64,000 nt of DNA, from positions 1-64,000 of the forward strand of contig NC_089433.1 in NCBI RefSeq assembly GCF_026210795.1. The letters are read 5' to 3'. The stretch comes from Rhizophagus irregularis. Taxonomy: Eukaryota. Every line of letters starts with the position of its first letter. The first letter of the stretch is position 1. Below are positions 979 through 31,837 of this stretch, in pieces. Below the pieces are notes generated by a model, which was not told the origin of the DNA, did not search any database, and saw only the letters and a list, made by a program, of their open reading frames with translations. Both the position numbers and the translations under genes were made by a program.

Positions 979-1033
979 ATTCGGCTAACTTTATTTTTTC
1001 GTTTAAAGATACAACATATAAAATAGAATATTT

Positions 1034-4515: not shown

Positions 4516-4688
4516 TCATGTATATTAGATAGACGTCATGTATCACGGGCTAAGTCCCGATCTTGTATTTATTTTTGCATGTATTAATAAAAAAAAAATT
4601 GAATTTTGCAGGTATTTGATAAGCGAAAAAATATATAGTCACTCGAGTGGAGTCGAGGGGCTATAAACAATTTATTATATCATAATCC

Positions 4689-5240
4689 TTAGCATAATGC
4701 TCGCGCTAGAGCCAATATATGTTCTGACCCTAAAACAATAGTCTTGGTGAATGCATCGTATAAAGCACCTGGTTTGTGCTTTGAAGGGGCTAAATCCGGG
4801 TGATGGAGGAATTTCATAAGCACGTCGTTCCTCCAAGTTTTCATCTCTTCTTGCTCCCAAGTTATTCCTATTAACGTGGTCAAGTTATTAATGGAATAGT
4901 TCATTTGGATTAGATTCTGGAGCGAAGATCGTTTATTTTTTTCTAGAGTAAATAGACTCATTCCTCCCATAACAGCAGATTCTACACTAATAGGAACCCT
5001 TTTACAAATATCCGATCTACTCGCTAAGATAGATAAGGGTGGAATTAGAGCTGGGTGGTAGAAGTCGGCTAAGGGGTCCAATTCGAATTCGCCAACATAC
5101 AAAGTCCCAATATCTTCTAGGTAATCGGAAAGCCTATCCACATATTTATAGCCTTCTCGAATCAACTTCTGAAATAGCTTTCCATTTGGGTCGATCCATC
5201 GGTCTGTTAAAATATTGAATACTGTTTTTTGCTTGTCCAT
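4689..5240 (-). CDS. Hypothetical protein with N-terminal NxxTxRWIxxxGxxFxKL motif
   Basis: 183-aa intronless ORF. The N-terminal motif resembles a short adaptor motif of large DNA virus proteins. Confidence 0.5.
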   Translation of the reverse strand: MDKQKTVFNILTDRWIDPNGKLFQKLIREGYKYVDRLSDYLEDIGTLYVGEFELDPLADFYHPALIPPLSILASRSDICKRVPISVESAVMGGMSLFTLEKNKRSSLQNLIQMNYSINNLTTLIGITWEQEEMKTWRNDVLMKFLHHPDLAPSKHKPGALYDAFTKTIVLGSEHILALARALC

Positions 5241-5369
5241 AGAAATGAAGTAGTATGGTGTGGTATATATTTTTCGTTTATGTTATACTTTTTCCACCGA
5301 AGTTCAATTCGGATTTTTCCATAATTTGAAATCGGATTTTATAATGGAAGTGAAGAAAGAATATAATAA

Positions 5370-5597
5370 ATGGATCGTCTTACCTGCCCACATATTAGAA
5401 AGGATGGGAGTACTTGTGGCCGAGTCTGCACCCGCTTGGCAGGATGTTCGCTCCACTGGAAATCGGGTGCAAATAATATGCTAAAATCTCCATGCAGAAT
5501 ATGTGATAAACCTACATTATCTTATACGGGCTATTGTTCCAAACATGCCAAAAAAATCTATCGTCACCTCGAAAGAGAGAGACAACGAATAAATTGA
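5370..5597 (+). CDS. Small Cys/His zinc-finger protein
   Basis: CPHIRKDGSTCGRVCTRLAGCSLH and CRICDKPTLSYTGYCSKH in 75 aa. Confidence 0.6.
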   Translation: MDRLTCPHIRKDGSTCGRVCTRLAGCSLHWKSGANNMLKSPCRICDKPTLSYTGYCSKHAKKIYRHLERERQRIN

Positions 5598-5769
5598 TCC
5601 CAGCTGAAGGCACTCAGGGTAAGGGATCGTGCCTACTTGTATGATTGTCATAAACCCCTATTAATATTTTTTTTCTTGGCAAAAGAGATCAGCGTGAACA
5701 ATTGTTCACGATCAGCTTAAATATTTTCCGATTTTGAATACTAGCATTATAGAACATTAAAATATTATC

Positions 5770-7323
5770 ATGTCATCCGAACTTGATTCATTGAGACAAC
5801 GCATTATTGAGCTTGAGGCCGAGAATGCTGAGGTTAAGGCCAAATATATCAAGGTTATGGATGAGAATGCAGAGGTCAAGGCTGAGAATGCAAAGTTAAG
5901 GTGCGCTTTGGAAGAACGTGAAGCTAGGTTCACGAGACTAGAGCAGAGAGATAAAGAAAAGACCAACCTTATTGCCAAAATGGATGATGATATCAAGGAA
6001 ATCAAACAATCATCGGCCAATGCCAGCTCTGTCGAGAATCCCAACAATGTTGTTCGCCTGGGTAAACTAGAAAAGATGGCAAAGCCATCAAATACATCTG
6101 ATAGTACATTTAATTCTAATGCATGCAAACCTATTTGTACAGAAACTAAGTCATTGGAGGATAAAGAGACGGATGATTTATTGGATGAGGAGTATAGGAG
6201 AAAGGTTAGCGATGAGATCAGGCAGAGGAAGCGGGAAAAAAAGCTTCAGAGCGAATTGATTGTCCAGGAGTCATCACCAGCAATTAACACCAGTTGTATA
6301 ACAGACCTCTCTACGACTAGCACTGGACTTGTAACTCCCCCAGAACAGGTAGTTGAAGAATCGATTCCAAAGGAATCATCTGCAGAGTCAGCGATACCCT
6401 GTGAGTCTTTTGGAAACAAGCAGGACACTCCACCCCAAAAAATTCCCTATAATCAGAAAGTAGAACAAGATTTAATACGCGAACTACTTGAATTTATTAA
6501 ATGCCATAATTCCACATCCTTACCGAATTCTATATCTAGCAAACATATTCCAGATGTCCCAGTCAATGCTGACCTAACTCCAGGTTCTGTACTTCATTTA
6601 GCTCATTTATTTGACAAGGCTGAAAAGACCGGTCGGAAAGAAAAATTACGATGGTATTACTATAGTGAGGAATATGAAAAAAAGATTGTAACCCTTAGAT
6701 CCGAAAATGATATTAGCGATCAAATGGCAAGAACGCAGATTTATGATGAAATGGAGCTGTATCTTCCCGGTAAAAAGAGAGAGTATTTGCGTAAGATGAC
6801 ACAAAAGGCTAAAAACATCTATACCTTGTTTAAAGGAATAGGAATAGATAAAATTGGAGTGGTTACATCTAGTGCTGATGCAATCTCTGGACTAACTGAT
6901 GCACAAATCCAGAATATAATAAATCTTTATACTGATGAACTAACCAAATCTCAAAAATTGATCGGCGTGAACAATTGCTCACGCACACGTGGTCTGCCAG
7001 CTGAAGTACCAGCATTCTCTCAGCCAAATGCTCCATCGGAAATGATTTCATCAGACATGTCTCAAGCAAATGTACCATCTGCATCCCAATCTAAGCCCGA
7101 TCATTCTTATTTTCGCAACAAGATATTGGATCAATATTCTAATCTATATAGAGAATGTAGTAGTGAAAATTTTGATTATTATGGGATTACTGATGAGACA
7201 TCAGGGGACTATATCTGCCCATTATGCAAATTAGGTCATGATGATGAAGAAATAGAAGGTAGGTATAAAGCAGGATCTTACTTTATTAAATGTGAACAGC
7301 GTGAAATTGAGATAGTTGTGTAG
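5770..7323 (+). CDS. Coiled-coil protein with uncharacterised helical domain and C-terminal CxxC..H zinc finger
   Basis: 517-aa intronless ORF. Heptad-rich N-terminus, WYYYSEEYEKK...LRKMTQKAKNIYTLF domain, and CPLCKLGH...C. Confidence 0.75.
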   Translation: MSSELDSLRQRIIELEAENAEVKAKYIKVMDENAEVKAENAKLRCALEEREARFTRLEQRDKEKTNLIAKMDDDIKEIKQSSANASSVENPNNVVRLGKLEKMAKPSNTSDSTFNSNACKPICTETKSLEDKETDDLLDEEYRRKVSDEIRQRKREKKLQSELIVQESSPAINTSCITDLSTTSTGLVTPPEQVVEESIPKESSAESAIPCESFGNKQDTPPQKIPYNQKVEQDLIRELLEFIKCHNSTSLPNSISSKHIPDVPVNADLTPGSVLHLAHLFDKAEKTGRKEKLRWYYYSEEYEKKIVTLRSENDISDQMARTQIYDEMELYLPGKKREYLRKMTQKAKNIYTLFKGIGIDKIGVVTSSADAISGLTDAQIQNIINLYTDELTKSQKLIGVNNCSRTRGLPAEVPAFSQPNAPSEMISSDMSQANVPSASQSKPDHSYFRNKILDQYSNLYRECSSENFDYYGITDETSGDYICPLCKLGHDDEEIEGRYKAGSYFIKCEQREIEIVV

Positions 7324-7429
7324 TCTCATTGCTTTACAATAGTCTGGGAATTTTAATCTTTTTTTCGAATGAATAGGTCTATATGAGAAAAAAGGGATTT
7401 AAATTCTTTGCAGTCATATAAAAAGGAAA

Positions 7430-7969
7430 ATGACTGAGTCTGTTAAAATACTAACCGCCAATTATCTGGATTGGCATGCCAAATTAACTGGGTTACCAAG
7501 TATTTTGACAGATAAGATTCGTTCCAAATTATACAAAAGATATAAAAAAGAAACTGGAAATGAGCCATGGCAACTATCAGAAGTACATGAATCGGAAGTT
7601 ATAAATTCAAAGCCAGAAAAAGGGCCCATCACCTTCGAAGCCAGACCTGATCCAGAATTAATTATCAAATCCGTCTTAGAGCATTTCACATACTTGAAAT
7701 TCCGAAATAGTTTTAGGGGGATTGATAATTATAATTTTGCATCACTTCAGCCATGGAGCTCACCATGTCCTATTTGCAATGGAAAACATGGGAATTATGG
7801 ATTACATGGCTCATGGTACTGCGAAAATGGGAATCAGCTCCCTTATGACCCTGAATTAGCGAAGTTCTATTCTCAAGATAAGTTGGAATATTGTCTTACC
7901 TGCAACACTTCAAGCAATAAACTCAAGTTCGCGATCGTGAAAATGCGCAGTCGCAATGTGGTGATGTAA
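7430..7969 (+). CDS. Hypothetical zinc-finger protein
   Basis: 179-aa ORF with CPICNGKH...CLTC, similar in pattern to the C-terminus of the 5770 ORF. Confidence 0.6.
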   Translation: MTESVKILTANYLDWHAKLTGLPSILTDKIRSKLYKRYKKETGNEPWQLSEVHESEVINSKPEKGPITFEARPDPELIIKSVLEHFTYLKFRNSFRGIDNYNFASLQPWSSPCPICNGKHGNYGLHGSWYCENGNQLPYDPELAKFYSQDKLEYCLTCNTSSNKLKFAIVKMRSRNVVM

Positions 7970-8319
7970 TTATTGTCTTATTGATCCCGATTTGTGCGAA
8001 TCACATCCTCTAAAACATTATCCGAATATAGGTATTTTTTTCGTCAATCATCATTTCGTGATTTGGGGATAAGAATTGCAAGGGATGAAATGTCAGAATG
8101 CAAGTTCGTTATAACTGTTATAAAATAGTAATATTAAATGATGGGGATCGTTCATTCTGCAGAATTTACAAGCACGCATATGTAATAGAATTTTTATTTT
8201 GTATAACTTGCAATGTATAATCTATTATCTATTCATTCATCTACAACAGTATTTATGAAAAAAATATAATTATTTTAAATTTTCATAATCATGATTGGCA
8301 CCATAATAACTACATGGGG

Positions 8320-9303
8320 TTATGGTCTAGAAATCGTATCAAGTACAATATTTAGTTCCATTGTCCATCCACATAATAATACCAAGTGTTCATTCCAGTC
8401 TATTTTATAATAAACCGTATTGGTACCATTCCAGTAAACAAAATATGGTGCGCGAGAAGGTCTGACATTTGGAGGATTTAGAGGAGTAGCAGGGACCGAT
8501 GCTACTCCAGGATTCGGATTCTGGCGGACAGGACCTAGAGTATCCGGCAATGCGATTCCAATAAATTCTATCGCAAGAAGATTTTGTTGAATCACAGTAA
8601 GTTTTTCAAACGCGAATCCACGATCGGGGTCGCGATTATAAAAAACCTGTCAAGTATTTAGATCTGATGAGCAAAACCAATTTGCAATTCAAATTTTTTT
8701 ATGTAAGAATTTGATAAATTACCTCAATATACACATCCGGTGGCGGACATGCGTTAACGTATGGTTTAGATAATTGTGCATGAGTTGGCCAATTAAACCA
8801 GATACCAACATCTGATTTATATTTATTTTCCATCATCTTACAATCTGTACCTTGTGTTACGAACCAATTTGGATTATGTGTATCGGCTGAACTATTTAAT
8901 TTGAATTGAATTCGTGTTTTATGCCCTCCATCAATCTAATATAGAAAGTGGTCAGATTCAAATCAATGATACAGTATGTAGCTTGAAATAAAACTTACTT
9001 TGATGAACAAGTCCTTCCCAATCATTTCAGCGTGGTATCTATCAAATACCGCCTGCTGTACATATTCATTACATTCATCTAGCTCGGGAAGGGTAAACTT
9101 GACAAGGGTTTGGTTTTGTTTTTGCGTTAAGATTTTGTCAATTTTCGTGCAGATCTATTGTATATAGTCGTTAGCCACACTTCTTTGCTATTTTAAAACA
9201 GTCTTAAGCAACACTTAAATACTTGATTAATTTTAGAGGCCTGTCTGGTCTCTCGAGTAACTGAAACGGAGATTTCTTCTGAGCCTTCAGTCGTGACGCT
9301 CAT
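8320..9303 (-). CDS. Spliced gene, putative Uma2-like PD-(D/E)XK endonuclease-fold protein
   Basis: Exons joined across GT-AG introns give MSVTTEGSEE...YKSDVGIWF...PPPDVYIE|VFYNRDPD...IEFIGIALP. Confidence 0.5.
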
Positions 9304-10247
9304 TATTATTTGATAAATTGTTCCACGGTACAGGAAGCAAGAGAAACGCAGAAAACAAAAAAAAAAAAAAAAAAAAATACTACATACGTTTCCTTTATAG
9401 GGCGAATTTTCCAGAACTTCTTACATCATTACCGTTCCACAGTCACGTGATATTGGCTGACCGACGTACTCCCAATAATATCTAAGCATCTAGCGTGACA
9501 GTTACAAACCTTCCATCAACTAAGGATGAAAATTCTCGAGCAGAGCCATCATCAAAAATCTGCATGACAGCACGTTGACACCGAATGATTCAGTGTACAT
9601 CATTCAAGGTTAGATGCTTTGTTGTTGCAGACGATTCAGATGATGATGGATATAATGGATACGGTGGATATAAAGAATATGGTGAATGTGATAGAGGCTA
9701 TTATTATCGTGATGGAAGGTACGAAAGAAAAACCTCACCAATGATGAGTCCTATTATCTCTCCGGTGACCGCCTAAGAGAATTTCGCATATTTGGTACTC
9801 GATTGTCCTATAAGTTTATTACTACGTTTCTTTTTTTCGAATCACGTGGGTGGCTTATCCAAAAGAGACTGCGGTATTTTAAACCCGATCACCTGAAATG
9901 CGCAGAAGATATCGGGAAAATTCTTGCCGGAGAATAGGGGCTGTACGACGTAAGATTGGCATATATATTCTCATTATTATTTTTTTTGACTTTATTTTTG
10001 CGTCATGTCTCCGGCCACACTATTATCATATCAATAAACAATATTCGGATATAGGCATTTCTTCAAGCAATCCTTATTTCGCATATGAGATTGGGGGGAT
10101 ATCTATGCTAATCATGAAGTCATTTTTATCGATTTGCAGGGGGATTAACGAATGACGAAATTTACAAATGCTATAAAAACCCGTCTTTAGCTTTAGCCAT
10201 CAAGATAGCTATTTTTTCTGACCACCGAGAGTTATAAGTGGGTAGGT

Positions 10248-11636
10248 ATGGAGAACCAAGATAGCTCTGTTAATACGGAAGCGACCACTGTTGATGAAAT
10301 CAATATTGGCCCAATCGGCAACACGCAAAGTAGAGAAAAGAGCAGTATTCCGGAATCTGAGAGACCCTCTCTTGTTAATCTTAGAAACCTTGGATATAAT
10401 ATCCTCAAAAGTCTCGAAGATAAAACTGTTAGAGATATTGATTTCCCAGAACTAGGTTCATGCTCCGAATGTGGCAATGACATTTTAATGTCCCCTCTCA
10501 AGGCGTTCTCATACCTCACCTGCGGACATATTTTTCACAGACTTTGTATCGAAAAAAAACTTTTCCTTGGCACTCCAAGCGCATGTCCAGCCCCCAACTG
10601 TGGAAAGAGTGTGGACATCTTAGATCAAGCTGATGGCCTTAATATCATTTCCAATCCGCCAATACCCGATCCCAGAGTGACCTCTCAATCAAGTGGAATT
10701 TCACCTTTATCCAACTCAATGAGAACGTTTACCCTATCTTCACCACCTATATGGATGGGAGGGGTCGAGGGTACAGCAACTCAGCAAGTCAAAAGTGCTT
10801 TGAGATGCGCTAAATGTTCTGAAGACCTTTCTTCGTCCCTCCCTCCTCTGCGAAGCGCCTCAACGGCAGGCTTTCTTCGAATCGCCCCTCAACCTCAAGG
10901 TCCTTCGAAACCGCTCGTATATTTAACCTGCAAGCATATTGTCCATTACAACTGTATCGATAATCCACGAAAGTTGTGTCCTATATGCGCATCGGCTAAT
11001 ATGGAAATTGATGATTTGGAAACTCCAACAGAGCAGAGTTCAAGTACTGCACAGAAAAAACGTTCTAGCGAGTTTGCTTCTGAAAAAGATTCAAATAAAA
11101 AAGCGAAGCAGACCAGGAAGCAGATTGATCGAAATGATTCCCCTACATTGAAAAAACTAATTATGGAGTTGACTTCTCCTGAGTCCCTAGAAGATGGTCT
11201 CTCTCGAGATCCCCTCATCACTTTGCAGTCGAGTGTCTTTGAGATGGACGTAAACTCGCTTGATTTTCTCGATTTATATAATAAGATTGGTACTGCTGAA
11301 GACAATCTTCGAAGAACCACTCATGATTTGCTTCGATGCTATTATATTTTTGGCCAAGCCACTAAGCAGTTATTCGATCATTTTAGAAAAACTTGTAATG
11401 AGGATGCATCTAATGCTAAAGTTAACGATAGAATCATGAATCAGATTTCTGTACAAGATAAGCTTACCGAGACTAACCTTCGAAAAAGAAAGGAAAGGGG
11501 TAAAAAGGTTTTCAGGCTTTTTAGTAATGTTGGTGGTATAGAAGCAATAGAACGGTTAAAGTCTTTTAATGCTACTACAATCTTAAATCTATCCCCAGAT
11601 GATGTCGATTTTCTTATTGCTAGATTAAACGAATAA
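10248..11636 (+). CDS. Double RING-finger protein (putative E3 ligase) with C-terminal helical domain
   Basis: CSEC...LTCGHIFHRLCI...CPAPNC and CAKC...LTCKHIVHYNCI...CPIC. 462 aa, intronless. Confidence 0.8.
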   Translation: MENQDSSVNTEATTVDEINIGPIGNTQSREKSSIPESERPSLVNLRNLGYNILKSLEDKTVRDIDFPELGSCSECGNDILMSPLKAFSYLTCGHIFHRLCIEKKLFLGTPSACPAPNCGKSVDILDQADGLNIISNPPIPDPRVTSQSSGISPLSNSMRTFTLSSPPIWMGGVEGTATQQVKSALRCAKCSEDLSSSLPPLRSASTAGFLRIAPQPQGPSKPLVYLTCKHIVHYNCIDNPRKLCPICASANMEIDDLETPTEQSSSTAQKKRSSEFASEKDSNKKAKQTRKQIDRNDSPTLKKLIMELTSPESLEDGLSRDPLITLQSSVFEMDVNSLDFLDLYNKIGTAEDNLRRTTHDLLRCYYIFGQATKQLFDHFRKTCNEDASNAKVNDRIMNQISVQDKLTETNLRKRKERGKKVFRLFSNVGGIEAIERLKSFNATTILNLSPDDVDFLIARLNE

Positions 11637-12333
11637 ATAGTACTACTGCTACATGTATTTTGTGCAACTCTTGATAATAAAGGGTCCTTTTAGGACTGGC
11701 TACGGCCATTTTTGATTTTTTATTTGTAAAGTAGTGTGACACTAATGTCACGGCTCTCAGAGCAAAAATCATAAAGTTTCTGGTTTTCATTTCAGCATAT
11801 AAATTGTCATAACCCATAACTCTGTTCCAAAACTTTGCCAGATTTCATTGGTTTAGCTGTGACATTAATGTCACACTTCTCCCCAATAAGATTTCGAATA
11901 AGAATCCATATGACTAAATTAGCCGATCATCTCGAACATGTGCATTTTATTCGTAATCATTTTTCAGGCTATCCGGCTAAAGAAAAAATCTGAAATCTGA
12001 TTACGGCCAACCATCTCGTGATTTATCGAAACCCTAGAACTATTGAGGGAACTGGTAGAGATGTCATGTGATACGATATACAGTACATCATGCCACAAAC
12101 TGATTTAGCCGAAGACGCATGTAAATATAAGATTAGCTTAGCCCGAAAGATGAATTTGAGTTTAGTCTCTCTAAATTGGCTACAAATCGATAAAACCGCT
12201 ATAAATCATTAAAACTGCTTAACCGGCAAATTTGAAACATGTTATCCATTAGTATAAGATACTAAAAAGTTGCTAAAAACGCTATAAATCAATAAATTGC
12301 TATAAATCGTTATAATTCGTTCGAACAAGAAAT

Positions 12334-13375
12334 ATGTCCAGATTATCTTCTAATATTATTTTAGATGAGTGGTTTAATAAGATTGTGCCTAAACCTATTA
12401 ATAATCGTCCTGGATATGATATGAAATATGTTAGCGCATATATTGTAAAATACTGTTGTAGTACTGACCTCAAAAAAATAATCGGAATAGAGTGGGAGTA
12501 TGATACATTATCAGTTGTGAAACCAGGTCAGTCTCTAATTGCATGGGCCGTAAGTGTCAGAATTCGATTACAAGAATTATTAGCCAATCAGAGATTTAGT
12601 GTATATCACCTACATTGCTTGTTTGCAGGACAATGGTAAGATGGTTGATTCTGACTATCATCGGCCCAGAATCAATAAGAGTAATATGGCTATTTGTTTT
12701 GATTGCTGGAAATTGGTAAAGATTACCGATATAAAACCAAAAAAAACATATTTCAGTGGATGGTGCAGATATGGATATGAGATTAAATCCGAGGACTTGA
12801 TGAAATACCATTGGGATAATGAATGCTCCAAAGCTAAAACCCCAGATGGAAGTGCTCGGATTATCCAAAGAGCTTATAGGAACTATAAAAAGCAACCTGA
12901 AACTTTTGCAAAACGAGTTTGGGAGGCGGTTAGAAATGATAATACTCTTAAGGAAAAGAAGTTTCTTAATATGCCTAGTAGAGGAATTCGTTGCACTGTA
13001 AACTTGGATATATGGTATTCTATTGCTGGATTGTATAGACCTTATCATGTTCCGCAAGATCAACTTTATGATTATATAAGCTATTCAAAGCATAAGAGGC
13101 GCCAATTATCTGATAGATTGGCCATAGCAAGAAATAAAATACAATGCAACTATATCACGCCTAGTGCTCCAAATTTTGAGCCAGCTTATATTTCACCTGC
13201 CAAGCAAGAAATGATTCCACTAACTTCTTATCAGTTATCGAATTGCAAAAGTGATACAGGCGAAATTTTTATCTCATCTTGGTATGTAAAACAAAATAAC
13301 TTACTACCATCTATAAACCATTTTAATCAGCCCATATTAAGATTGAAAGATGGAACAAAAATCATGATTGTTTAA
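12334..13375 (+). CDS. Hypothetical protein(s) with Cys/His motif and IQ-like motif (two overlapping ORFs, possibly one frameshifted gene)
   Basis: CFDC...HWDNEC and SARIIQRAYRNYK (IQ calmodulin-binding-like). Confidence 0.5.
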
Positions 13376-13672
13376 CTGGCTTAACTGACTGATTCTGGGA
13401 AATATCTTAATTATAGACTATTGCTATTAACTGAAAATTAATATTATTTAGCCAAAGGTGCAATGTATAACTTATTCTTTATTTTTTACGCTAAATAATC
13501 TGTATACATGATCGCCTAGTAAAATTGGTCAAAGGCGCTATACATGAAAATGTATCACCTGCCAAATTTTTCAGATTAGTCCTTAACCCAGATCCCGGTT
13601 AAGATTATGCGCTTTCTGAGGATCAATATAAATCAAAGGTTCTCCCATTCTCTTTTATAATCACAAAAAAGA

Positions 13673-16128
13673 ATGGCATTTCGGAGGTCCCATCCAAGGC
13701 AGAGAAGAACATGTGAAGAATATAAAGCTGAACTGGAGGAGGAGAACTACCATCTTTGTAGTGAATTGCAAGCAGAAGTTGATAGTAACTGCCAAAATGA
13801 AAAGCAGATCAGGGAGCTGGTACGTGAATGTGTCCGTTGTGAACAAGAAATCCAAACTCTTAATGGTGAGATAGAACGTCTTGAGAATGCTTCGAAAGAG
13901 GAGATAGTAGAGCTAAAATCCGAAATTTCCAGCCTAAAAAAGCAACTATATCAAGCTAAGAAGGATATTCGTGATAATGAAAAACATATTTCTAGTATAG
14001 AGAGTCTGTTAGTAGATTCTGAGGAGCAGGTAGAGAAATTGCGATGCCGGATCAGAACCATCTCATCACGAAAAAATTCGCCAGAACGAGGAAATTCTCC
14101 AGACTTGTATAATCCTAATATTAACTTAGAAATGGCTACCATCACGGAGCTAGCAAATGCTATAGATGGTTATCTGAATAATACAACAATAGGTAGAGAA
14201 ATCTTAGCTGATCAAATAAAAAGGGCGACAAGGCAGATTCGCTGAAAAGAGAATAATTGGCATCAGGATTTAGTCCGTGAGCAACGAAGGCGATATGATG
14301 CAGAGGCTGAGCGTGATAATGAAATTATACGAAGGCAAAATGCTGAAGGAGTGGAACAAATGGTTATTGCTGACCTTTATCAGTTGCGGATCAATGCTCA
14401 AAATCAAGTAAATAGAATGTTAGACAATATAACAGGAAAGCGAACCCGTATTGGTATATTGCTACAGGAAAAATTTGCCTTACAATTGCTGTATCAGCGA
14501 AATGCCCATCACTTACAGCGCAGTAGAAAGGATATAGGTCTGTTAGAATTTAATCGTGACAGGCTCTATGAGTGATATGAGAAATGGAAAAATAAGACCC
14601 AAGCAGAGCGACAGAATAATTTAAATTTGCAAGGACAAATTTTGGCGCTTCAGAATAATCCACCTAATCAAGTAAACATGGCAGGAATACCTCATCCATA
14701 TTTTGACTGGGATGATAGTATCCCAGACTTTCTTGCGCAACTTAGACTAGACTTGCAAAATCGGGGAATAGATCCAGCAGGTGCAGGGGGCAATGGAAGA
14801 GCTCAGGCACTAGGACATTTAAGAGCATGTATGAGAGGAAGAACGCCTTAGAATGGTTTGATGAAGAGATTACTACAAAGACAAATTGGGAATTAACTAA
14901 TCTGACTGATGGTACAGGACAAGCCAATTTGGTAGCTGTAAACGGGCGTACAGCTATTCAGATCGGTGCTGATGGATTAAATGAGGCACTCTGACAACCT
15001 GGAAATGCAATAGTAAAATTAAGAGCTGTAGAAGGTCCATGGGACGAGGACTGGCGCATAGCAGGAGGTCGTCCTACTAATCTTCCTGTTAATTTACCGA
15101 ATGCTGGTAATGGAACTACAGTAGTTGTAGCTGGTATTCGATTTGGTCAAGCCGTATGGTGGCTAAAAACTCATTTTCCTACAGTAGAAGAGGAACTTCG
15201 GGATTTGATGTATGGAACAATCAGAAGGGAGACATGACTATAGATGAATTATATAGAAAAATATTACGAATAGGTAGACGAGCCAACTATAGACCTGAAG
15301 AATTACGTAGAAAGTTCTTAGATGCTTTACCACTTTTATGGCTTGAAAAAGCTGAAGATATTGGTGAACATTTGCCATTAGATGAATTAGCTAAAAAGCT
15401 TTATGAGATAGAATTACGCCGAATAGCTAGACATAAAAGAGATAGAATATCTGATCCACTAGTATCTAATCGAACATCTCGGCAAATATATGAACCTTCA
15501 CCTGTTTCAGCCTCACAACAGCATGGAATATCTTTAGAAGATATGCAAAAAGCAATCCAGAATGCATTAGCACAGCAAAAAACTGAATACCAGTCTTTAT
15601 TAGAAAAACAAAAAGCCGATTTCCAATCACAAATGGCCCAGCAAACTAAAAAGATACCTCCACCAGTTCCTCCTAAAAATATGGAACAGCTTCGATACAT
15701 ATGAAAGTGCTAATCCTTTCCCCGATACACTTACTAGGGAAGAAATAATGAGAGTGGTCGCAAAAGCTTATGGGCCACCTCCCCTCCACCGCAAAAAGCC
15801 AGAAAAGTTGCAATCATCTAGAATCGATAGATTAGAGTCAAAAATAGATGAAATTGGTCAAATGACATCTAAGTTTGGTAGGATATCACTTAATGATCAA
15901 TCTCGAAAGCCTTTTTATTGCAGTAATTGCGGACAGGAAGGGCATAAGAAAAACAATTGCCCAAGGTTAAATCCTGTAGCTAAATCCAATTTTACTCAAT
16001 GTTACTATCCTCAACTTCCATCTACACAGCCCCAATATACGCCTCCAGATTCAGATAATGAGGAAGATGGTTATGACAAAGTAGAAAATAGGTGGTATTA
16101 TGCACCGGAAAAAAAAACAGGTAAATGA
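13673..16128 (+). pseudogene. gag: Gag-like polyprotein: long N-terminal coiled coil, retrotransposon capsid, CCHC zinc knuckle
   Basis: Joined across stops (14243, 14573, ~14992) and frameshifts: PYFDWDDSIPDFLAQL...LRACMRGR..LEWF...WLKTHFP...Q(K)GDMTIDELYRKI...RRKFLDAL (major homology region-like), then CSNCGQEGHKKNNC. Confidence 0.8.
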
Positions 16129-16783
16129 TAAGTTGGCCAGTGATACTAATGCAATCTCACCCCTAGAATCTAGCCAACCTGAAACGTACGATCAGCTATT
16201 GTCTAAGCTCTCACCACTGATACGAAAAATGTGCTTGTCTCGAAAGGCTCGGGAGGAGGAATCGAAAGAATCAGATGAGTGGTTGTCATCTTTACAATAT
16301 CTGAATGCTAATATAAATGACTTAACTATTTCTGAATCTTTTTTAGATCCCGGCAGTGAGTTCGGTGGTATAAATGACCCAGCAATTAAGGTGCTTGGAT
16401 GGAAGGCTGATAAACCATCTAATTTTGCCATAAAGGGCAATTCTAAGCATATCACCGATTCATTAGGATGGTATACAGACGTGCCAGTTACTTTGAAGGA
16501 TAAAGAAGATAAGACGGTCACCATTATTGGAAATTTTGTTCGTATTGATAATGGTGAAACAGAACCAATGCTATTTTTTGGTATGTCAAACATTCGGAAG
16601 GTTCAAGGCGTCCCCGAGCCGAATAAAAATCAGTTTCGCATAAAGTTACATGGAAAGGCATATATTATCCCAACCTTTAGCAAGGCTCCGGTAGTCAAGG
16701 ATCTGCCAAAAAAAGATCAGGACCAAGTATCTACCGATTCTTCTAGTCTAACTGGTGAGAAGAACTTAAAAAAAAATGCATAA
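16100..16783 (+). CDS. Retropepsin-like aspartic protease
   Basis: SFLDPGSEFGGIN active-site-like motif, flap-like IKGNS...SLG, and MLFFGMSNI (ILG-like). Overlaps the end of gag at an A9C run. Confidence 0.7.
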   Translation: MHRKKKQVNDKLASDTNAISPLESSQPETYDQLLSKLSPLIRKMCLSRKAREEESKESDEWLSSLQYLNANINDLTISESFLDPGSEFGGINDPAIKVLGWKADKPSNFAIKGNSKHITDSLGWYTDVPVTLKDKEDKTVTIIGNFVRIDNGETEPMLFFGMSNIRKVQGVPEPNKNQFRIKLHGKAYIIPTFSKAPVVKDLPKKDQDQVSTDSSSLTGEKNLKKNA

Positions 16784-16917
16784 ATTGTATGAGTTATGAA
16801 GATATGGCAATTCGTATGAAAGAGCTCGAAAAGGCATTATTTTCTAGCATTCAATCGAATTTGGAAATCATAGAATACTATAATAGTTCGCGCAGTCAGA
16901 TTGAATAGGACGAATAA

Positions 16918-17388
16918 TTATTTGGAAATAAGAGGACGACCTGATGCTTTAATTTTTTCTAAAGTATTATCAGTTCTCTTATACAAATCCAAGACATCTT
17001 CAGAGGAGTCAGTAGGCGAAATAATTTCTTTTTTTGTTCCAGGTATTGATTGACCCCCTTGGGATCGTTTCTTTCCTCCAGTCTTTTTTGCCTTACTACC
17101 TGCACTTTCTTCTGAAACCGGATCAGTAGATTTGCTAATTTCAGCATCGTGTATCTTGTTTTCCAGTGCTGTAAAGGCAGTATTAAATTTATTTTGAAAA
17201 TCTCTTTCAGCTTGGTGCTCTTCATTCTGTTTATTTATAACATTCATACTTGATGTGACTGCTAAATCATTCCATTGAATCCTATTAAACTCTTGTCCTC
17301 TCCAAATTTGATATAAGCGACTATTCGATATATTATATTTTTTACTTAGCTGAGCTAAAGGTTTAGACTTCATATCACGATATTGCAT
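16918..17388 (-). CDS. Helix-turn-helix DNA-binding protein
   Basis: PLAQLSKKYNISNSRLYQIWRG is a classic HTH pattern. Confidence 0.6.
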   Translation of the reverse strand: MQYRDMKSKPLAQLSKKYNISNSRLYQIWRGQEFNRIQWNDLAVTSSMNVINKQNEEHQAERDFQNKFNTAFTALENKIHDAEISKSTDPVSEESAGSKAKKTGGKKRSQGGQSIPGTKKEIISPTDSSEDVLDLYKRTDNTLEKIKASGRPLISK

Positions 17389-17524
17389 GATATCTTTGTA
17401 ATGCAGCGGAGGATAAGTATCTAGCCCTGGAACTAATATGTGTTTTAAGCGGGGGTGTAATCATATTAGTAACTAATCTCTAAAGATTTTTTTTTCACTA
17501 TAAATAAAAAATCCACAAAAAATA

Positions 17525-17730
17525 TTGATACTATGGTAATATCAGTAATACAATAGTATCAGTACTATGCTAATATCGGTAGTATTGATAATATTAGTAT
17601 CAGTTATATGGTAGTATCAGTACTATGCTAGTGTCGATAATATAGTAGTATCGATAGTATCGGTAGTATTAGTATCAGTTATATGGTAGTATCAGTACTA
17701 TGCTAATATTGGTAATATGCTAGTATCCAT
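17525..17730. repeat. Degenerate short tandem repeats (TAGTATCAGT/TAGTATCGGT units) between divergent genes
   Basis: Repeated agtatcag/agtatcgg/tactatgcta motifs. Confidence 0.75.
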
Positions 17731-17852
17731 AAAAAATAAAGTGCTTACTGCGCAGTCTCAAAATTTTGCTCATATTTTTTTAGTATACTAATGATTAAGC
17801 CGAAAAAATATGCCCAACTGTACATACTTTAAGAGATATCGAAAATAGAGGG

Positions 17853-18910
17853 GTGGTTGAGGGTCCACTAAGTAAACACACCTCCTCAGGTAATCGGCTT
17901 GGTAGCATCCGCGAATCAGAACTTGAGAAAGCATTGCGCGGTAACATCAAAACTGCTTCTGATATTGCTAATGATTATAAAGACCTGCAGGACATATATT
18001 TAGAGCGAGTGAAGGATTTTAATCGTATCTGTTCGGGCTTTAACAATAAGTTTAGTCGGCTGAATACAGCTAATACTGAGCTCAAAGCCAAATATTCTGC
18101 TGAAATCAAATCGCTCAAATCCAATATTAAAATACTAGAGAGAGCAGCAACTTTGGCCCAGAAAACTTCGTCCGCCTGACAAGGTCCAGATTCTTTCTCT
18201 TGAAGTTAAAATACGTGAATTGGAAGGTAAGTTGGAGGACATAGATCTAGAGCGTACATATTATGATTTGGATGTAATGGGAGGAGTGATAGAAAAGCCG
18301 GTAGAAATGCCAAAGTTACCAGATTGGCTTCATGATAATTTAAGAAGTATTGTCTGTAAGTTCGGGCTCAAAGATAAAGTAATGGAACTTGATAAAAAAC
18401 TTGCTAAGGAAGATATATTGGAGGTGTTGCAAAAAGTAATATTAGAAAAAGACCACCACCTTCAAGATGCCAATGCTCGCCTAGAAAAGGCATTATCAGA
18501 GAAAGATTCCCTCCTTCATGAGGCCAATACTCATATAAAAAAACACTTAGCCAGTTTTGAAAAAAAAACCAGTCCCGATTCTTTTGAGACTCTGCAGGTA
18601 ATCAAAGTAACTGATATCTCCAATACTACTTTAGCATTACCCCACTTGCACTCTATTACTGGACCAGAAGCAGGTGAAACTAATTCCTTCTTTTTCAGTA
18701 TGCAATCATCTTCGTAATAGTATTACTAATCATATGCATTTTATGGTGTGTATTCTCTCGTAGAAATTCTTCTTACAATGAAGAAAAAAATATTTCGAAC
18801 TATAAAATACCCTTAAATAGAAATCAGAGTTATGCTTTCCCAATCCGATATACAGAAGAACCAAAAGACAGGACTGCCTCCTATGAAACTTCGTCTTTTG
18901 GATATGGATG
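17853..18910 (+). pseudogene. Coiled-coil protein with predicted C-terminal transmembrane helix
   Basis: ORFs 17853 and 18220 are coiled-coil rich. The -1 frame from 18696 reads QYAIIFVIVLLIICILWCVFSRRN. Confidence 0.5.
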
Positions 18911-19681
18911 AGGTCACTAAACATGAATCATCCCGAAATATTGGACATCCAGCAATGACATGGCCTTTCAGCATGTTGGTCATGGGGTAGAAGTGGTTCA
19001 GGTAAGACTAATTTACTTGCGAATCTTTTCTTCGGTAATAAGGATGAATATGTGCAAAGAGGGAAGAAAGGTGGGTCTCGCTACATCAAATGTGATGATC
19101 TAATTGTTTGTGGGTATCATCCTGATGAACCAAAGTGGGCATATGTGAGATACATATATAATATGATTTCGAAAGACCCAAGAGCACCTTACTATGAGAA
19201 TATTAGTTTCAGTTATATTCCACCCGAAAGAATTCCTAGTACAAGAACATTCTCACCCGAAAGAAGTAAATTATTTATTTTTGAGGATCTGTGCCTCGCT
19301 CCAGATCATATACAAAATCGTATTGGTCAGTTTTTTGGGAATGGGCGTCACCGAAATATTTCATGTATATATATTACGCAAAAGTATCATAAAGTCGATA
19401 CATTCAAACGTGAAAACTCGACTCATTTAGTATTATTTAACTCTGGTAGCAGTATCCAAGACGTGTCTAAGATTGTTGGACGATATATTGATGATGTAAA
19501 GGGTGCATCTATGGTTATTAATAGTTACCTTCGAAAAGGCGAGTTTGTTGTATTTGATCTCACTAGGCCAGAAGATGATCCTCTTGCAATCCGCCTAAGG
19601 TTTGACACTCCACTGAACTTACAAAAGGAGATAGAGGCTAGGCAGAAGCGCAAGAAAAAGAGTGCCTCAGCTAATGAGTAG
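18832..19681 (+). pseudogene. A32/FtsK-HerA-like DNA packaging ATPase (one frameshift just before Walker A)
   Basis: WPFSMLV.GRSGSGKTNLLANL (Walker A), KLFIFEDL (Walker B), and GRHRNISCIYITQKY...KREN (A32-family arginine/glutamine motifs). Extra base in ATGGGGTAGA near 18981. Confidence 0.88.
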
Positions 19682-19731
19682 AATCTAACTTCATAGATAC
19701 TAACTTTTTTTCGTAATTATAAAAAATTGGA

Positions 19732-20862
19732 ATGGGGGAACCAGTTATTTATATCGATCCTCAAAAAGCTCATGATTTAGACCAGCATCTTGCTTTGCAA
19801 AAAATATATTATCGTCCTGAAGGTCTTTATCAAAATGTTAAGGGATTATGGGATGCTTGTAAAAAAGCCGGCTACAGCTTTCCATTTATTGATATAAAAA
19901 AATGGCTTGAGGGCCAAGCAATGTATCAAATTTTTCGTCCTTCGCCAAAGCATATACCTTATGCCAGTTACTCTAAAATCACAAAGCCAAATACTGTGCA
20001 CCAATGTGATTTAATCGAAATACCATATGATGAAGATGTGGATACAAATTTACTAGATGATGGTCCAATATATTACTATGTACTATTGGTTATAGACTGC
20101 GCGACTAGATATAAAGATTTCATTTTTTTAACATCAAAGAGCAGTGAGGAAGTTGCGGAAGCATTTAAGAGTATATATAATAATCCCGATAAGCCTCTCA
20201 ACTGGCCTCGAAAATTGCAATGTGATAAGGGCACTGAGTTTATGGGATACGTAACTTTATTAATGGATGAACATGGCGTTGAGATCCGAAGAATTATAGC
20301 ACGTTTCAGGCATACAAGCTTGGCTATGGTCGACCGTTATGCTGGATTATTCGAATTAAGAGTTTTTAAAAATCAGTATTCAATAGAGTTTCTCCTGCCT
20401 ACTGGTAAGCGCTGTAGAGAATGTGAGCGGTTTGCAAGAAAAATTGTTGATAATATGAATGATAGCCCAACTCGATTGATTGGGATGAGTCCTAATGACG
20501 CCACAAAACTTGAGCAGATATATTCCAAACCATCAGTAAAATATAATCGCCCAATAGGTGTTGATGAACCACAACTACCAAAGGGTACTACTATCCAATT
20601 TTTGCTCGCTCCTGGAGAGTGGGAAAACGATCCTTTCGAACGACGCAGAATAACAGATCCGATATGGTCTCCCAGCCTGCATAAGATTCGGAAAATTGTT
20701 GTTGGAAAGAATCCTCCAATGCCTATTTTATATTATTTAGATGAATCAGGACCCCAACGCCCTTTCGTGAGAGAACAATTGATGCATATTAAGGAAGAGC
20801 CCATGTTACCTCCTAGGTGGATATTGGGAGATAACCGAATGCGTACAAGGCGCTCCTTATAA
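19732..20862 (+). CDS. Polinton/Maverick-type retroviral-like (rve) integrase
   Basis: LQKIYYRPEG...IKKWL..QAMYQI, HQCDL, LLVIDCATRY, LQCDKGTEF, AMVDRY, and C-terminal RRITDPIWS...LYYL...PFVREQL. Intact 376-aa ORF. Confidence 0.9.
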   Translation: MGEPVIYIDPQKAHDLDQHLALQKIYYRPEGLYQNVKGLWDACKKAGYSFPFIDIKKWLEGQAMYQIFRPSPKHIPYASYSKITKPNTVHQCDLIEIPYDEDVDTNLLDDGPIYYYVLLVIDCATRYKDFIFLTSKSSEEVAEAFKSIYNNPDKPLNWPRKLQCDKGTEFMGYVTLLMDEHGVEIRRIIARFRHTSLAMVDRYAGLFELRVFKNQYSIEFLLPTGKRCRECERFARKIVDNMNDSPTRLIGMSPNDATKLEQIYSKPSVKYNRPIGVDEPQLPKGTTIQFLLAPGEWENDPFERRRITDPIWSPSLHKIRKIVVGKNPPMPILYYLDESGPQRPFVREQLMHIKEEPMLPPRWILGDNRMRTRRSL

Positions 20863-21328
20863 AAGTTTCTAAGTCTACTACACAGTAAGGGATTGTAATA
20901 AGGATTACTCCTTCCCGATAGCATAACGCTTTCTTTTTCCAATCACGCCAGATTTGTGCGTCTAGATTCATCTGACCTTGTGGGTGAAAAAAAGGGACGA
21001 TTTGGTAATGTTGATTGCCACTATATTCAAAGGCCAAGCCTAACTCTTCATTGTATCCATCTAGATGTAATCCCTCCAAGAATTTAGGCTTTCGGGGTGG
21101 AAATTTTTTATGTAATAAATCCTCAAATATATACCGGCACGTTCTTTCTGGTATATTAGGACAAATATTGCACCATCTATAATTCTGTTTCATATTTTTA
21201 TATGGCGCCTCCCATTGATGGCCTTTTTTACATGCCCATAAATATGTATTAGAACTAACTTTAGCTAAGCATCTTCCTTCACGCTTTTGGGCATATGCCA
21301 AAGCTTTAGTGTTAATATCATCTTGCAT
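20813..21328 (-). CDS. Zinc-ribbon + Vsr/PD-(D/E)XK-type endonuclease
   Basis: WACKKGHQW...WCNIC zinc ribbon, LHLDGYNEELGLAFEYSGNQHY, and RDWKKKALC..EGVILITIPY. Confidence 0.8.
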   Translation of the reverse strand: MQDDINTKALAYAQKREGRCLAKVSSNTYLWACKKGHQWEAPYKNMKQNYRWCNICPNIPERTCRYIFEDLLHKKFPPRKPKFLEGLHLDGYNEELGLAFEYSGNQHYQIVPFFHPQGQMNLDAQIWRDWKKKALCYREGVILITIPYCVVDLETFIRSALYAFGYLPIST

Positions 21329-21690
21329 TTTATAGGTACAATAGAATATCACATACAGAAATTTGCGGTAGTGATCATTAGCTCTAGACTAGTTTGGTCA
21401 GAAGAATCGATCTGGATATATGCAAATCCAGGTGCAAGTTTGAAAGTAAAATTAAACTTGGCTACTACTATTGCATAAGTAAAAAAATAAATATCGCCAA
21501 TATTCTTAGCAGGAAGTGGCAATTTCGGCTAAGAGTACTTGACAATATAGCTCAACAATCTTGTCTATATATTCGCTCTTTTTATGTATTATTGATATTA
21601 TCAAGTAGATCGATATCTTTTAACAATTTTTTCGTTTGTTTATAAAGATTTTGCCATTGTACATGAAATTTGTTTCGTAAGACAGAAGAC

Positions 21691-22050
21691 TTAATAAGAC
21701 AGGGGAAGAATACTTGTAAGATTATTTATATGGGATTTGATTACTGCATGAACATTTGCAATTTCTTCTCCTGCTGTAATCCAATCATAACGCGGAGTAT
21801 AGAGAACTGTATAAATATGGGTTATTTCTTGTTCACTACAGTCTAGCCGATATTTGATAAAATCAAGATCTTCACGAAATTCCCTTTCTTTTTGCTTTAA
21901 AATAACTCGAAATGCTTCAGAATTCCATTGATGATTCACAATAAGACAGGAATATAGTATATCCTTAATCTTGAGATTACTAAAAATTAATTCAAGCAGT
22001 TCAGAACAAATAAATGGGCTAGGCCCAGCATTTTTTTGCGCAAGAAGCAT
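21691..22050 (-). CDS. F-box protein
   Basis: ICSELLELIFSNLKIKDILYSCLIVNHQWNSEA. Confidence 0.7.
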   Translation of the reverse strand: MLLAQKNAGPSPFICSELLELIFSNLKIKDILYSCLIVNHQWNSEAFRVILKQKEREFREDLDFIKYRLDCSEQEITHIYTVLYTPRYDWITAGEEIANVHAVIKSHINNLTSILPLSY

Positions 22051-22079
22051 GGTGTATATGCAAGAAAGCAGTATAAAAT

Positions 22080-23442
22080 AACAGAGAAACTAGCAAAGTT
22101 CAAAATAAAAATTCTATATAATTTTGAGCGAATATGCTTATAGCGCGGGCAAAATACTGGGTCAGTAGTAGTACCCCAAAGTAATCAATATAATAATGCC
22201 TAAAAGTAATCGATGTAGTAGTACTCCAAAGTATCCCAGAGTAGAAACTATACAGGAACAAGAGCTAGAAGGCGAAAACAAGCAAGTTTATGGTAACCCA
22301 CTCAAGCAGAATTATATATAGGAAAGAAAAGAGAAATTTCACTTGAGTGGCCTACCACCGATAGGCAGGAAAGAGACTGGAAAGGCAGAAAGGTTCAGGA
22401 GAATACACGAAAAAAGATATGAAAGCGATATAGCCTGAACCAATTCGACACTTCGCATGAGCCTCACACAGCAATCAGAAAGGGCATATAAAGGGCGGGA
22501 TTGCAAGAATGGGCATGAAACACCTTGCACTTCGTGCCTCATCCTCGGCAATCAAAAGGGTTATGGAAGGCAGGATTGCACATCTAGGTCACCAATTCGG
22601 CACTTCGTGCTTCATTCCTGGCAATCAAAAAGTGAGGAAATGGATTGTGAAATGTCTTCGGCAAATAGATGGATTGCAAATTCGGCACTTTGTGCTCATC
22701 CGAAACAATCGAAATGGGCATCTCCAAATCTCCGACCAACTGATACACCAGATCGAATCCTGAATATCCCTTGAAAGTTGCAAGAAGGTTGCGAGAAAGT
22801 GACGGGGAAGTGCCTGGAACTGGCGAGGAACTGGATCACATGATTAACGCAGTAGGCGCAGTAGAATTTCGTTAATTTCGGCCAGCACTATTCCATATTT
22901 TTTTTGCATAAATTTCAGGATGCAATATCTCAGCATCCAGGCATCCGATTCATGCGATCTTAGCATCATTGGAAAGCTCTCAACGCCCTCATCAGAACGA
23001 GCTTAAAACCGCACGAATCCAATCACAGGAAGCCAAGATATTCCGCCCTAAAGATTAGGTCAAAAATATAGCATAATGCCGGCCAAAATCTGATTAGCAA
23101 ATTTACTGCGCCACCCGATCACAACATGATTTTTAGCAATCAAGGCCGGCCAAGCATTTTGGCCACAAAAAGGCTACAGAGCAATGAAAACAAGCAAATA
23201 GTTACAAGGCAGTAAAAAGATAGCAGAACAATAAAATCAAGCAAATATCTATAAAGCAACCAAACAGTCACAGACCAGTGAAAACAGATGGATAGCAATA
23301 AAGCATTAGAAAGGGCATAGACATGTAAAAATAAGTAAGTAGGGATCAATATCTATAAGTAGGCATCACTATAGTGTAAGTAGATAGATTAAGTAGACAT
23401 CACTATATATATAGTGATGTCTACTTAATCTATCTACTTACT
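22080..23442. repeat. Putative terminal (TIR-like) non-coding region of the element
   Basis: No convincing ORF and strong A/purine skew. Three degenerate GCACTT(C/T)GTGC..CAT...CAATC repeats at 22525-22715. Terminal palindrome. Confidence 0.5.
23376..23441. repeat. Perfect 66-bp palindrome
   Basis: GTAAGTAGATAGATTAAGTAGACATCACTATAT|ATATAGTGATGTCTACTTAATCTATCTACTTAC. Confidence 0.97.
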
Positions 23443-31605: not shown

Positions 31606-31837
31606 ATAATAGTTTGTAATTTTTAAAAAACACAGAAATGATTTTTACACGTGTTTCGTTTACTCGTCGTTATCAATTGATTAATGGATTATGTTATGTG
31701 AGACATATAGTAAGATGATTTCTCTATCCACCCTAGCATCGCCTCATTTTGCCGGGAACGACAATTAGAGTTTTTTTTATAAAAATTTTCTAAATCCACA
31801 GAATAATTATACTACGTGACAAATTACTAGCCCCAAT

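What the first reader, a model, noticed from the sequence alone, without database searches (positions are those of the whole stretch)
13673..20862. Chimeric virus-like element: retrotransposon Gag + protease coupled to a DNA-packaging ATPase and Polinton integrase, with no reverse transcriptase
Seen: co-oriented Gag (capsid MHR-like motif, CCHC), aspartic protease, a TM-anchored coiled-coil protein, an A32-like ATPase and an rve integrase. No RT, RNase H, LTR or PBS is visible around gag. Established: Polintons/Mavericks pair this ATPase and integrase with double-jelly-roll capsids and an adenoviral-type cysteine protease, while Gag plus retropepsin belong to reverse-transcribing elements. Inference: a Maverick-like DNA element replaced its capsid/maturation module with a retroelement Gag-PR module, a hybrid virion design I do not recognise as described. 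The second gag copy at 57847-58257 also sits downstream of cargo-type genes rather than an LTR, which supports gag being a native part of this family.
Basis: partly seen in the sequence, partly recalled or inferred. Interest (0 to 1): 0.93.

Follow-up and report, generated by a model that had tools for sequence, protein, structure and literature searches.

The report
Maverick-like fungal element with retroviral capsid
Mycorrhizal fungi carry a large mobile DNA element in which a retrovirus-type capsid gene and protease, with no reverse transcriptase beside them, stay linked to a DNA-virus packaging ATPase and an integrase, so it likely packs its DNA into a borrowed retroviral shell instead of the usual DNA-virus capsid.

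Summary
The five genes are present, although the window copy is broken by stops and probable assembly indels. A close homolog of the Gag folds like retroelement capsids, and the protease has a retropepsin fold. No RT, RNase H or LTR lies nearby.

The linkage is native, not chance nesting:
- Protease > coiled-coil/TM > A32 ATPase > integrase recurs in an independent contig.
- Protease precedes the ATPase in five Cetraspora gene models (another fungal order).
- In a second arrangement gag sits head-to-head with the integrase, with 24-35 nt between start codons and no room for an LTR.
- All 38 pairwise dN/dS values are below 0.5.

Best reading: a Glomeromycota Maverick/Polinton-like element whose virion module is Gag-protease (-1 frameshift) rather than a jelly-roll capsid. 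This fits the published lack of a detectable capsid in Glomus Polintons.

Not shown: a full-length copy, terminal inverted repeats, a polymerase in this copy, particles, or DNA packaging.

Prior art is partial. A 2021 figure legend lists Gag/retropepsin genes in an unnamed PolB element, probably the deposited Rhizophagus MELD virus. None of the passages I read discusses it.

The parts
479..13375 (.). Left cargo arm (GC ~37%), running off position 1: F-box/LRR gene (~1035-2002), Crinkler-N/SAM gene pieces (2562-4512), coiled-coil orphan (5770-7323), RING protein (10248-11636), other orphans. Only the 479-1912 part is shown to be linked to the integrase elsewhere.
   Evidence: L024/L025 join the LRR gene to the integrase
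13590..13648 (-). Remnant of the first ~20 codons of the element's own integrase family, head-to-head with gag
   Evidence: 77% identical over 84 nt to the start of the intact integrase, E 1e-14; integrase homologs match it at 71-86%
13649..13672 (.). 24-nt spacer with a TATA-like ATTATAAAA between the divergent integrase and gag start codons; likely a shared bidirectional promoter region
   Evidence: sequence; 25 nt in L007, 35 nt in L009
13673..16128 (+). gag: ~330-aa N-terminal coiled coil, capsid domain (~14680-15450) with a ~100-aa low-confidence insert, CCHC knuckle (15916-15963). Broken in this assembly by 3 stops and several indels.
   Evidence: indels absent from 2 of 2 runs laid, stops absent from 1 of 2
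16109..16121 (+). A-run at the gag/protease overlap: 9 A here, 10 A in both runs laid, giving an A AAA AAC heptamer with the protease in the -1 frame
   Evidence: homologous Gags P0005, P0007, P0009, P0021 stop just after KKN
16085..16783 (+). Retropepsin-fold aspartic protease (D-P-G at 16346-16354; D-S-G in other subfamilies), ending in a stop with no RT after it
16918..17460 (-). HTH-like ORF, probably a regulator; a diverged counterpart sits at the same place in L017
   Evidence: Pfam Mor E 0.02; 24% identity, E 0.002 to the L017 ORF
17810..18911 (+). Coiled-coil protein with one C-terminal transmembrane helix and no hydrophobic N-terminus (tail-anchored topology); frameshifted here, one 345-aa ORF in L020
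18820..19681 (+). A32-like packaging ATPase (Walker A GRSGSGKT, Walker B FED, GRH motif); one extra base just before Walker A relative to L017
19732..20862 (+). Stand-alone rve integrase, open 376-aa ORF, D93-D165-D201 (DD35D in this subfamily)
20813..21388 (-). Zinc-ribbon/endonuclease-like ORF; fused in frame to the integrase C-terminus in another subfamily
21981..23294 (.). Conserved right-end region shared with other copies; GC falls to ~24% beyond ~23450. Candidate terminal repeat, type (TIR or LTR) not determined.
   Evidence: L008, L022, L026
57847..59181 (-). Second, inverted remnant: 5' ~410 bp of gag, integrase 5' remnant (58212-58274, +), and cargo that also precedes gag in a Rhizophagus clarus gene model
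   Evidence: (P0012)

Best explanation
This is one copy of a Glomeromycota mobile element family in which a retroelement Gag-protease gene pair without reverse transcriptase is conserved next to an A32 ATPase and a stand-alone integrase, and it most likely works as a Maverick/Polinton-type DNA element whose Gag would replace the jelly-roll capsid as the shell for its DNA.

Shown: the folds (by prediction), the linkage in two gene orders, purifying selection, and no room for an LTR or PBS before gag.

Inferred steps:
(1) Gag is made in excess and Gag-PR by a -1 frameshift at A AAA AAC.
(2) The protease matures Gag in place of the adenoviral cysteine protease.
(3) The shell forms at a membrane through the tail-anchored coiled-coil protein.
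(4) The ATPase loads or condenses linear dsDNA copied by a protein-primed PolB (seen next to the ATPase in one Gigaspora gene model, absent from this window).
(5) The rve integrase inserts the DNA.
Modules reshuffle and carry variable host-like cargo.
For: Capsid fold: the top 21 of 274 re-aligned chains are all retroelement or retroviral capsid proteins, best PEG10 Z 10.5, rmsd 3.4, 86 aligned. Protease fold E 1.3e-5.

Synteny: L017 has PR > HTH > coiled-coil/TM > ATPase > INT. 4 of 28 long ATPase gene models begin with PR or Gag-end + PR, all Cetraspora pellucida; P0324 from another search is a fifth.

Of 13 loci with at least 200 bp upstream of the integrase, 9 have the ATPase, 2 a divergent gag, 2 LRR cargo. 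Gag and integrase have consecutive accessions in 2 of 5 same-contig pairs.

RT/RNase H matched 0 of 344 stored proteins and 0 of 27 loci. dN/dS was below 0.5 in 38 of 38 pairs.

Glomus Polintons are published as lacking MCP, penton and protease, one of them with the ATPase.
Against: No full-length copy, TIR pair or target-site duplication was seen.
No PolB in the window or in 27 loci. The PolB link rests on one fused gene model (P0116), and the Glomeromycota relatives seen carry an F-box/LRR tail, so it could be cargo.
A divergent jelly-roll gene beyond position 1, or among the orphan ORFs, is not excluded.
Recalled: Gag shells normally co-assemble on RNA, and no A32 pump is known to dock on one.
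No stable stem-loop follows the slippery site (z 0.36).
3 of 5 same-contig gag/integrase pairs were 5, 38 and over 100 accessions apart.
Foldseek E-values for the capsid match were weak (0.05), and BFVD gave no match at E<=0.001.
Confidence: 0.55

Rival explanations
1. The element is a capsid-less or cryptic-capsid Maverick-type transposon. Gag-PR is a fixed accessory module (an intracellular nucleoprotein shell, an mRNA carrier, or a restriction factor against Ty3/Gypsy competitors) and does not package the DNA genome with the ATPase.
For: The element carries much variable cargo. The capsid domain has an unusual ~100-aa insert and a long coiled coil in front. Arc, PEG10, PNMA2 and Ty1 p22, among the fold matches, are Gag derivatives with such roles (recalled).
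Against: Gag-PR keeps the frameshift layout and the CCHC knuckle. It stays next to the ATPase or integrase in both gene orders and in two fungal orders, whereas the gene beyond the core varies between loci. An A32 ATPase under purifying selection (dN/dS 0.11-0.43) is otherwise left without a capsid; Krupovic 2014 reports that nine capsid-less Polintons also lacked ATPase and protease.
Confidence: 0.27
2. It is a giant non-autonomous retroelement. Gag packages element RNA, an RT from a helper Ty3/Gypsy copies it in trans, and the captured Polinton integrase inserts it; the 21981-23294 region is an LTR.
For: Gag has a CCHC knuckle and a Ty3-like protease. RT-bearing Ty3/Gypsy sequence exists in the same window. 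The terminal region's type is undetermined.
Against: Gag starts 24-35 nt from a divergent integrase start, so no 5' LTR, PBS or leader fits. Genes lie on both strands over more than 23 kb. No direct repeat of the right end occurs in the window. An A32 ATPase has no role in this model.
Confidence: 0.13
3. A degraded LTR retrotransposon happened to insert into a Maverick at this locus, and the combination means nothing.
For: The window is a nest of broken elements, and the second gag piece does abut a Ty3/Gypsy.
Against: The same linkage recurs in independent contigs and in gene models from Rhizophagus, Glomus and Cetraspora, with diverged intervening genes and two gene orders. The 14 of 27 Gag models that include the protease show no RT.
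Confidence: 0.03

Closest known systems
Glomus/Rhizophagus Polintons (Polinton-1_GI = P_Gi1.1, and P_Gi1.2)
   Same: Same host group. Krupovic 2014 Table S1 lists P_Gi1.2 with an ATPase but no MCP, penton or protease. Bellas 2021 still found no MCP. Mavericks are reported as expanded in Glomerales.
   Different: No Gag is mentioned for them in the passages I read. I had no Repbase sequence, so identity with this family is untested. This copy is over 23 kb against 11-12 kb.
Rhizophagus glomeromycete fungus MELD virus (taxid 2707321) and the unnamed Gag-bearing element of Starrett et al. 2021, Fig. 5
   Same: A PolB-bearing Rhizophagus element is on record, and the Fig. 5 legend defines 'Matrix/Capsid/NC/Pro'. 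Probably the same family (my estimate about 0.7).
   Different: The figure and record could not be seen. The term Gag occurs once in the paper, in that legend. No synteny survey, selection test, fold comparison or mechanism appears in the parts read.
Canonical Mavericks/Polintons and adintoviruses (Polintoviricetes)
   Same: A32 ATPase, stand-alone ~355-400 aa rve integrase, multi-gene element of tens of kb. The integrase's nearest ESM Atlas clusters are 300-370 aa rve proteins, one with Chromo on 21% of members.
   Different: No jelly-roll major or minor capsid, cysteine protease or PolB was detected in this copy; it has Gag and retropepsin instead.
Ty3/Gypsy (Metaviridae) and Gag-only non-autonomous LTR elements
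   Same: CA fold, CCHC knuckle, retropepsin, slippery site between gag and protease.
   Different: The protease ORF stops with no RT, RNase H or fused integrase. There is no LTR or PBS before gag, and the integrase is a separate gene, often on the opposite strand.
Domesticated Gag-PR genes (PEG10, Arc, PNMA2)
   Same: Best structural matches; Gag with or without protease, without RT.
   Different: Those are host genes (recalled). This is a multi-copy mobile family with its own integrase and ATPase.

Membership tests
Maverick/Polinton | Retroviral-like (rve) integrase as a separate gene | tested here: met
   rve E 4e-7; 16 of 21 aligned homologs hit rve; DD35E/D triad. No tree against reference Polinton integrases was built.
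Maverick/Polinton | A32/FtsK-like packaging ATPase | tested here: met
   Pox_A32 E 4e-9; Walker A/B and GRH motifs conserved
Maverick/Polinton | Protein-primed PolB | tested here: inconclusive
   None in the window or 27 loci. One Gigaspora gene model joins a PF03175-related polymerase to the coiled-coil and ATPase genes. The element runs off position 1.
Maverick/Polinton | Terminal inverted repeats and 5-6 bp target-site duplication | not testable with these tools
Polintovirus/adintovirus | Double-jelly-roll major capsid, penton and adenain-type cysteine protease | tested here: inconclusive
   No such Pfam hit in the flanking stop-to-stop ORFs of 58 aa or more (80 of 84 scanned, the other 4). 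Divergent capsids escape Pfam, orphan ORFs were not folded, and the left part is missing.
Ty3/Gypsy LTR retrotransposon | Gag with CA fold and nucleocapsid knuckle | tested here: met
   (fold tested on homolog P0009, 65-74% identical over this region)
Ty3/Gypsy LTR retrotransposon | Retropepsin protease after gag | tested here: met
Ty3/Gypsy LTR retrotransposon | RT and RNase H in pol | tested here: not met
   No match in window 1-24000, in 27 loci or in 344 stored proteins
Ty3/Gypsy LTR retrotransposon | LTR and primer-binding site upstream of gag | tested here: not met
   No flanking direct repeat; the integrase start lies 24-35 nt from the gag start

The most novel reading that the evidence does not exclude
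A lineage of integrating dsDNA viruses in mycorrhizal fungi that swapped the whole jelly-roll morphogenesis module for a retrotransposon Gag-protease, and pumps or condenses its DNA genome into a retroviral-type capsid with an A32 ATPase and a membrane-tethered coiled-coil adaptor. It would be a working chimera between DNA-virus and retroelement realms, the missing capsid of Glomus Polintons, and a vehicle for F-box, Crinkler and RING genes.
Probability: 0.45. Interest if true: 0.92.

Novelty: new variant of a known kind. Interest (0 to 1): 0.76.

Why it matters
Glomus Polintons have been cited as lacking any detectable capsid. This gives a concrete, testable candidate: a retroelement Gag-protease that sits where the capsid module should be and is under purifying selection. 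If it packages DNA, a retroviral-type shell serves a DNA genome and an A32 pump works with a non-jelly-roll capsid, neither of which I know of (recalled; ten literature searches found only the Starrett legend). The element also carries F-box/LRR, Crinkler and RING genes, so it may help spread expanded gene families in mycorrhizal fungi (inferred).

Tried and rejected
Access limits:
- Six IMG/VR scans with integrase, Gag, ATPase and polymerase queries found no relative; one polymerase alignment was too diverse to scan.
- The ESM Atlas answered once, for the integrase; five tries for the ATPase did not complete.
- No RNA holder was listed for the stretch.
- Earlier-findings searches returned nothing.

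Searches with no useful result:
- Sequence searches of PDB with Gag gave only coiled-coil noise.
- BFVD gave no match at E<=0.001.
- A PolB profile from 41 proteins found nothing in the window or loci.
- No stem-loop beyond chance follows the slippery site; pseudoknots were not tested.
- The Starrett supplement was cut at 4 million characters before its accession table and gave no hit for Rhizophagus or gag. The bioRxiv supplements were not opened. Either may name the Gag-bearing element.

Considered and set aside:
- The 66-bp palindrome at 23376-23441 as the terminus: the window holds many palindromes, and L022 has a different one at its end.
- The TM protein as an envelope glycoprotein: no hydrophobic N-terminus.
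- No complex prediction was run.
Full report
Setting. All 24 named hits among the 27 Gag homologs, and all named hits among the 61 integrase homologs, are from Glomeromycota. The window is therefore from an arbuscular mycorrhizal fungus. Positions 1 to about 23,400 form one block of about 37% GC, against 24% in the right flank. Context therefore comes from short metagenome contigs, Logan contigs and public gene models.

Gag. The gene runs 13673-16128 in pieces. It has a ~330-aa coiled coil, a capsid region and a CCHC knuckle (Pfam E 2.8e-4). Pfam support for the capsid is weak: Retrotrans_gag matched 7 of 18 homologs, best E 8e-4. I folded homolog P0009 (65-74% identical over the capsid region; mean pLDDT 61.5). 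Foldseek ranked the PEG10 capsid C-terminal domain first (probability 1.0, TM 0.73, rmsd 2.5, E 0.05). On re-alignment of those 274 chains, the top 21 rows are all retroelement or retroviral capsid proteins, Z 10.5 down to 6.5. These Z values are modest for helical folds; the uniform ranking is what counts.

Protease, ATPase, integrase. The protease ORF has no Pfam protease hit, but its own model matches Ddi1 retropepsin (E 1.3e-5) and the family profile does too (E 2e-6). Its catalytic motif is DPG here and in P0025/P0027, and DSG elsewhere. The ATPase hits Pox_A32 (E 4e-9) and the integrase rve (E 4e-7). The integrase triad is D93-D165-D201. Its nearest ESM Atlas clusters are 300-370 aa rve proteins, which fits Polinton-type enzymes; no tree was built.

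The breaks. Logan contigs of two runs lack all six indels listed between 14844 and 16108, at full depth. A single-copy flanking contig also shows five gaps against the window. Many indels are therefore probably assembly errors. The three in-frame stops are present in run X1 and absent in run X5, so an open gag probably exists in X5; contigs mix copies, so continuity on one molecule is not shown. Both runs have ten A at the gag/protease overlap. That gives A AAA AAC with the protease in the -1 frame, and four homologous Gags end just after KKN. A programmed frameshift is inferred; no downstream stem-loop beyond chance was found (z 0.36).

No reverse-transcription module. The window's own Ty3 RT and RNase H matched nothing in 1-24000 (best E 0.75), in 27 loci, or among 344 stored proteins. 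14 of the 27 Gag gene models include protease sequence. There is no flanking direct repeat. Directly upstream of both gag starts lies a ~20-codon remnant of the integrase on the other strand, with 24 nt between the start codons. No LTR or PBS can fit there.

The linkage is native. Contig L017 carries protease, a diverged HTH ORF, a diverged coiled-coil/TM gene, ATPase and integrase in the window's order. Sixteen of the 27 loci include the integrase start, and 13 of these have at least 200 bp upstream. Nine have the ATPase there, 2 a divergent gag (25 and 35 nt spacing), and 2 the LRR cargo gene; 3 were too short to tell. Of 28 long ATPase gene models, 4 begin with the protease or Gag end plus protease, all from Cetraspora pellucida, a different order; P0324 is a fifth. 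A Rhizophagus diaphanus model runs from gag-protease to the ATPase N-terminus. Of five gag models chosen because an integrase shared their contig length, two have consecutive accessions with it, one is 5 apart, and two are 38 and over 100 apart. Loose ends in three runs match the start of another integrase subfamily head-to-head with gag. Two gene orders with the same partners argue for one functional unit. Pairwise dN/dS against the window is 0.17 and 0.37 for the gag 5' part, 0.36 for the protease, 0.11-0.43 for the ATPase (9 pairs) and 0.07-0.45 for the integrase (26 pairs). The pairs share the window sequence, so they are not independent, and the capsid domain itself was not covered.

Replicase and capsid. 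No PolB is in the window or loci. One Gigaspora rosea gene model joins a polymerase-like region to the coiled-coil and ATPase genes. Its relatives hit PF03175 (best E 1e-11) and a PDB DNA polymerase (1xhx, recalled as phi29; E 0.005). Several relatives carry an F-box/LRR tail, so replicase or cargo is open. No jelly-roll capsid or cysteine protease was detected among the flanking ORFs, but divergent capsids escape Pfam and the left end is outside the window. The right end is conserved between copies over 21981-23294; whether it is a TIR could not be tested.

Mechanism. The most likely reading (0.55) is a Maverick-type DNA element whose Gag-protease replaces the jelly-roll capsid and adenain. 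A tail-anchored coiled-coil protein (TM score 3.25, no hydrophobic N-terminus) would act as membrane tether, the A32 ATPase would load DNA, PolB would copy it and the integrase insert it. Folds, linkage and selection are shown; every step of particle function is inferred. The rivals are Gag as a non-packaging accessory (0.27), a helper-dependent giant retroelement (0.13) and chance nesting (0.03).

Literature. I read matched passages only, except where stated. Bellas 2021 (PMC7805220) says no major capsid was found in the Glomus intraradices Polinton. Krupovic 2014 (PMC4028283), supplementary table rows, lists P_Gi1.2 with an ATPase only. A 2026 preprint (10.64898/2026.06.19.733378) places Glomus and Rhizophagus A32 ATPases with Maverick-Polintons and has no occurrence of gag. 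AMF transposon papers report Maverick expansions without describing their genes in the passages seen. Starrett 2021 (PMC8502044; section 3.4 read whole) defines 'Matrix/Capsid/NC/Pro' in the Fig. 5 legend without naming the element. A Rhizophagus MELD virus with PolB is cited in 10.1101/2022.05.25.493380 and its taxid directly follows the Powellomyces MELD viruses. The combination has therefore probably been drawn once. Ten searches found no paper analysing it; subscription journals and Repbase are not covered.

Verdict. The feature is real, conserved and strange, and it makes the missing-capsid question testable. It is a new variant of a known kind with probable figure-level prior notice. Interest 0.76.

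Noticed in passing
window 50744-57856 (+): Degraded Ty3/Gypsy element (gag, protease, RT, RNase H, integrase) with a NUDIX-domain ORF (52501-52911) and a ~79-bp tandem array (53248-54393) between gag and protease; its integrase is cut off by the inverted second remnant.
   Followed up: partly
window 19732-20862: This integrase subfamily has DD35D instead of DD35E (5 of 21 aligned sequences) yet shows dN/dS 0.07-0.45.
   Followed up: partly
proteins P0116, P0192, P0209, P0219, P0224: A short protein-primed-PolB-like polymerase (IHTDG in place of YxDTDS in most) fused to an F-box or F-box/LRR tail; about 600-aa relatives without the tail are common in metagenomes.
   Followed up: partly
window 2562-4512: Pieces of a Crinkler-N + SAM domain gene inside the GC-rich block; with F-box/LRR and RING genes this suggests the elements may carry high-copy AMF gene families.
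   Followed up: no
window 23376-23441 and L022 ~2715-2755: A perfect 66-bp palindrome at the GC drop; another copy has a different perfect palindrome at the equivalent end.
   Followed up: partly
proteins P0131, P0141 versus window 20813-21388: The zinc-ribbon nuclease is a convergent separate gene here but is fused in frame to the integrase in another subfamily.
   Followed up: partly
window 16770-16909: A second A-run ends the protease ORF and overlaps a small ORF that two Rhizophagus clarus gene models append to Gag-PR; possibly a further frameshift extension.
   Followed up: no
window 17532-17731 and 61111-62809: A 75-bp (17-bp subunit) tandem repeat between the divergent HTH and coiled-coil genes, and a 60-bp tandem array beyond the second remnant.
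   Followed up: no
window 29041-46070: Host genes between the two remnants: a likely cation exchanger, an acyl-CoA ligase-like gene, a cytochrome P450 and a multi-C2H2 zinc-finger gene (read from the translations, names recalled from motifs).
   Followed up: no
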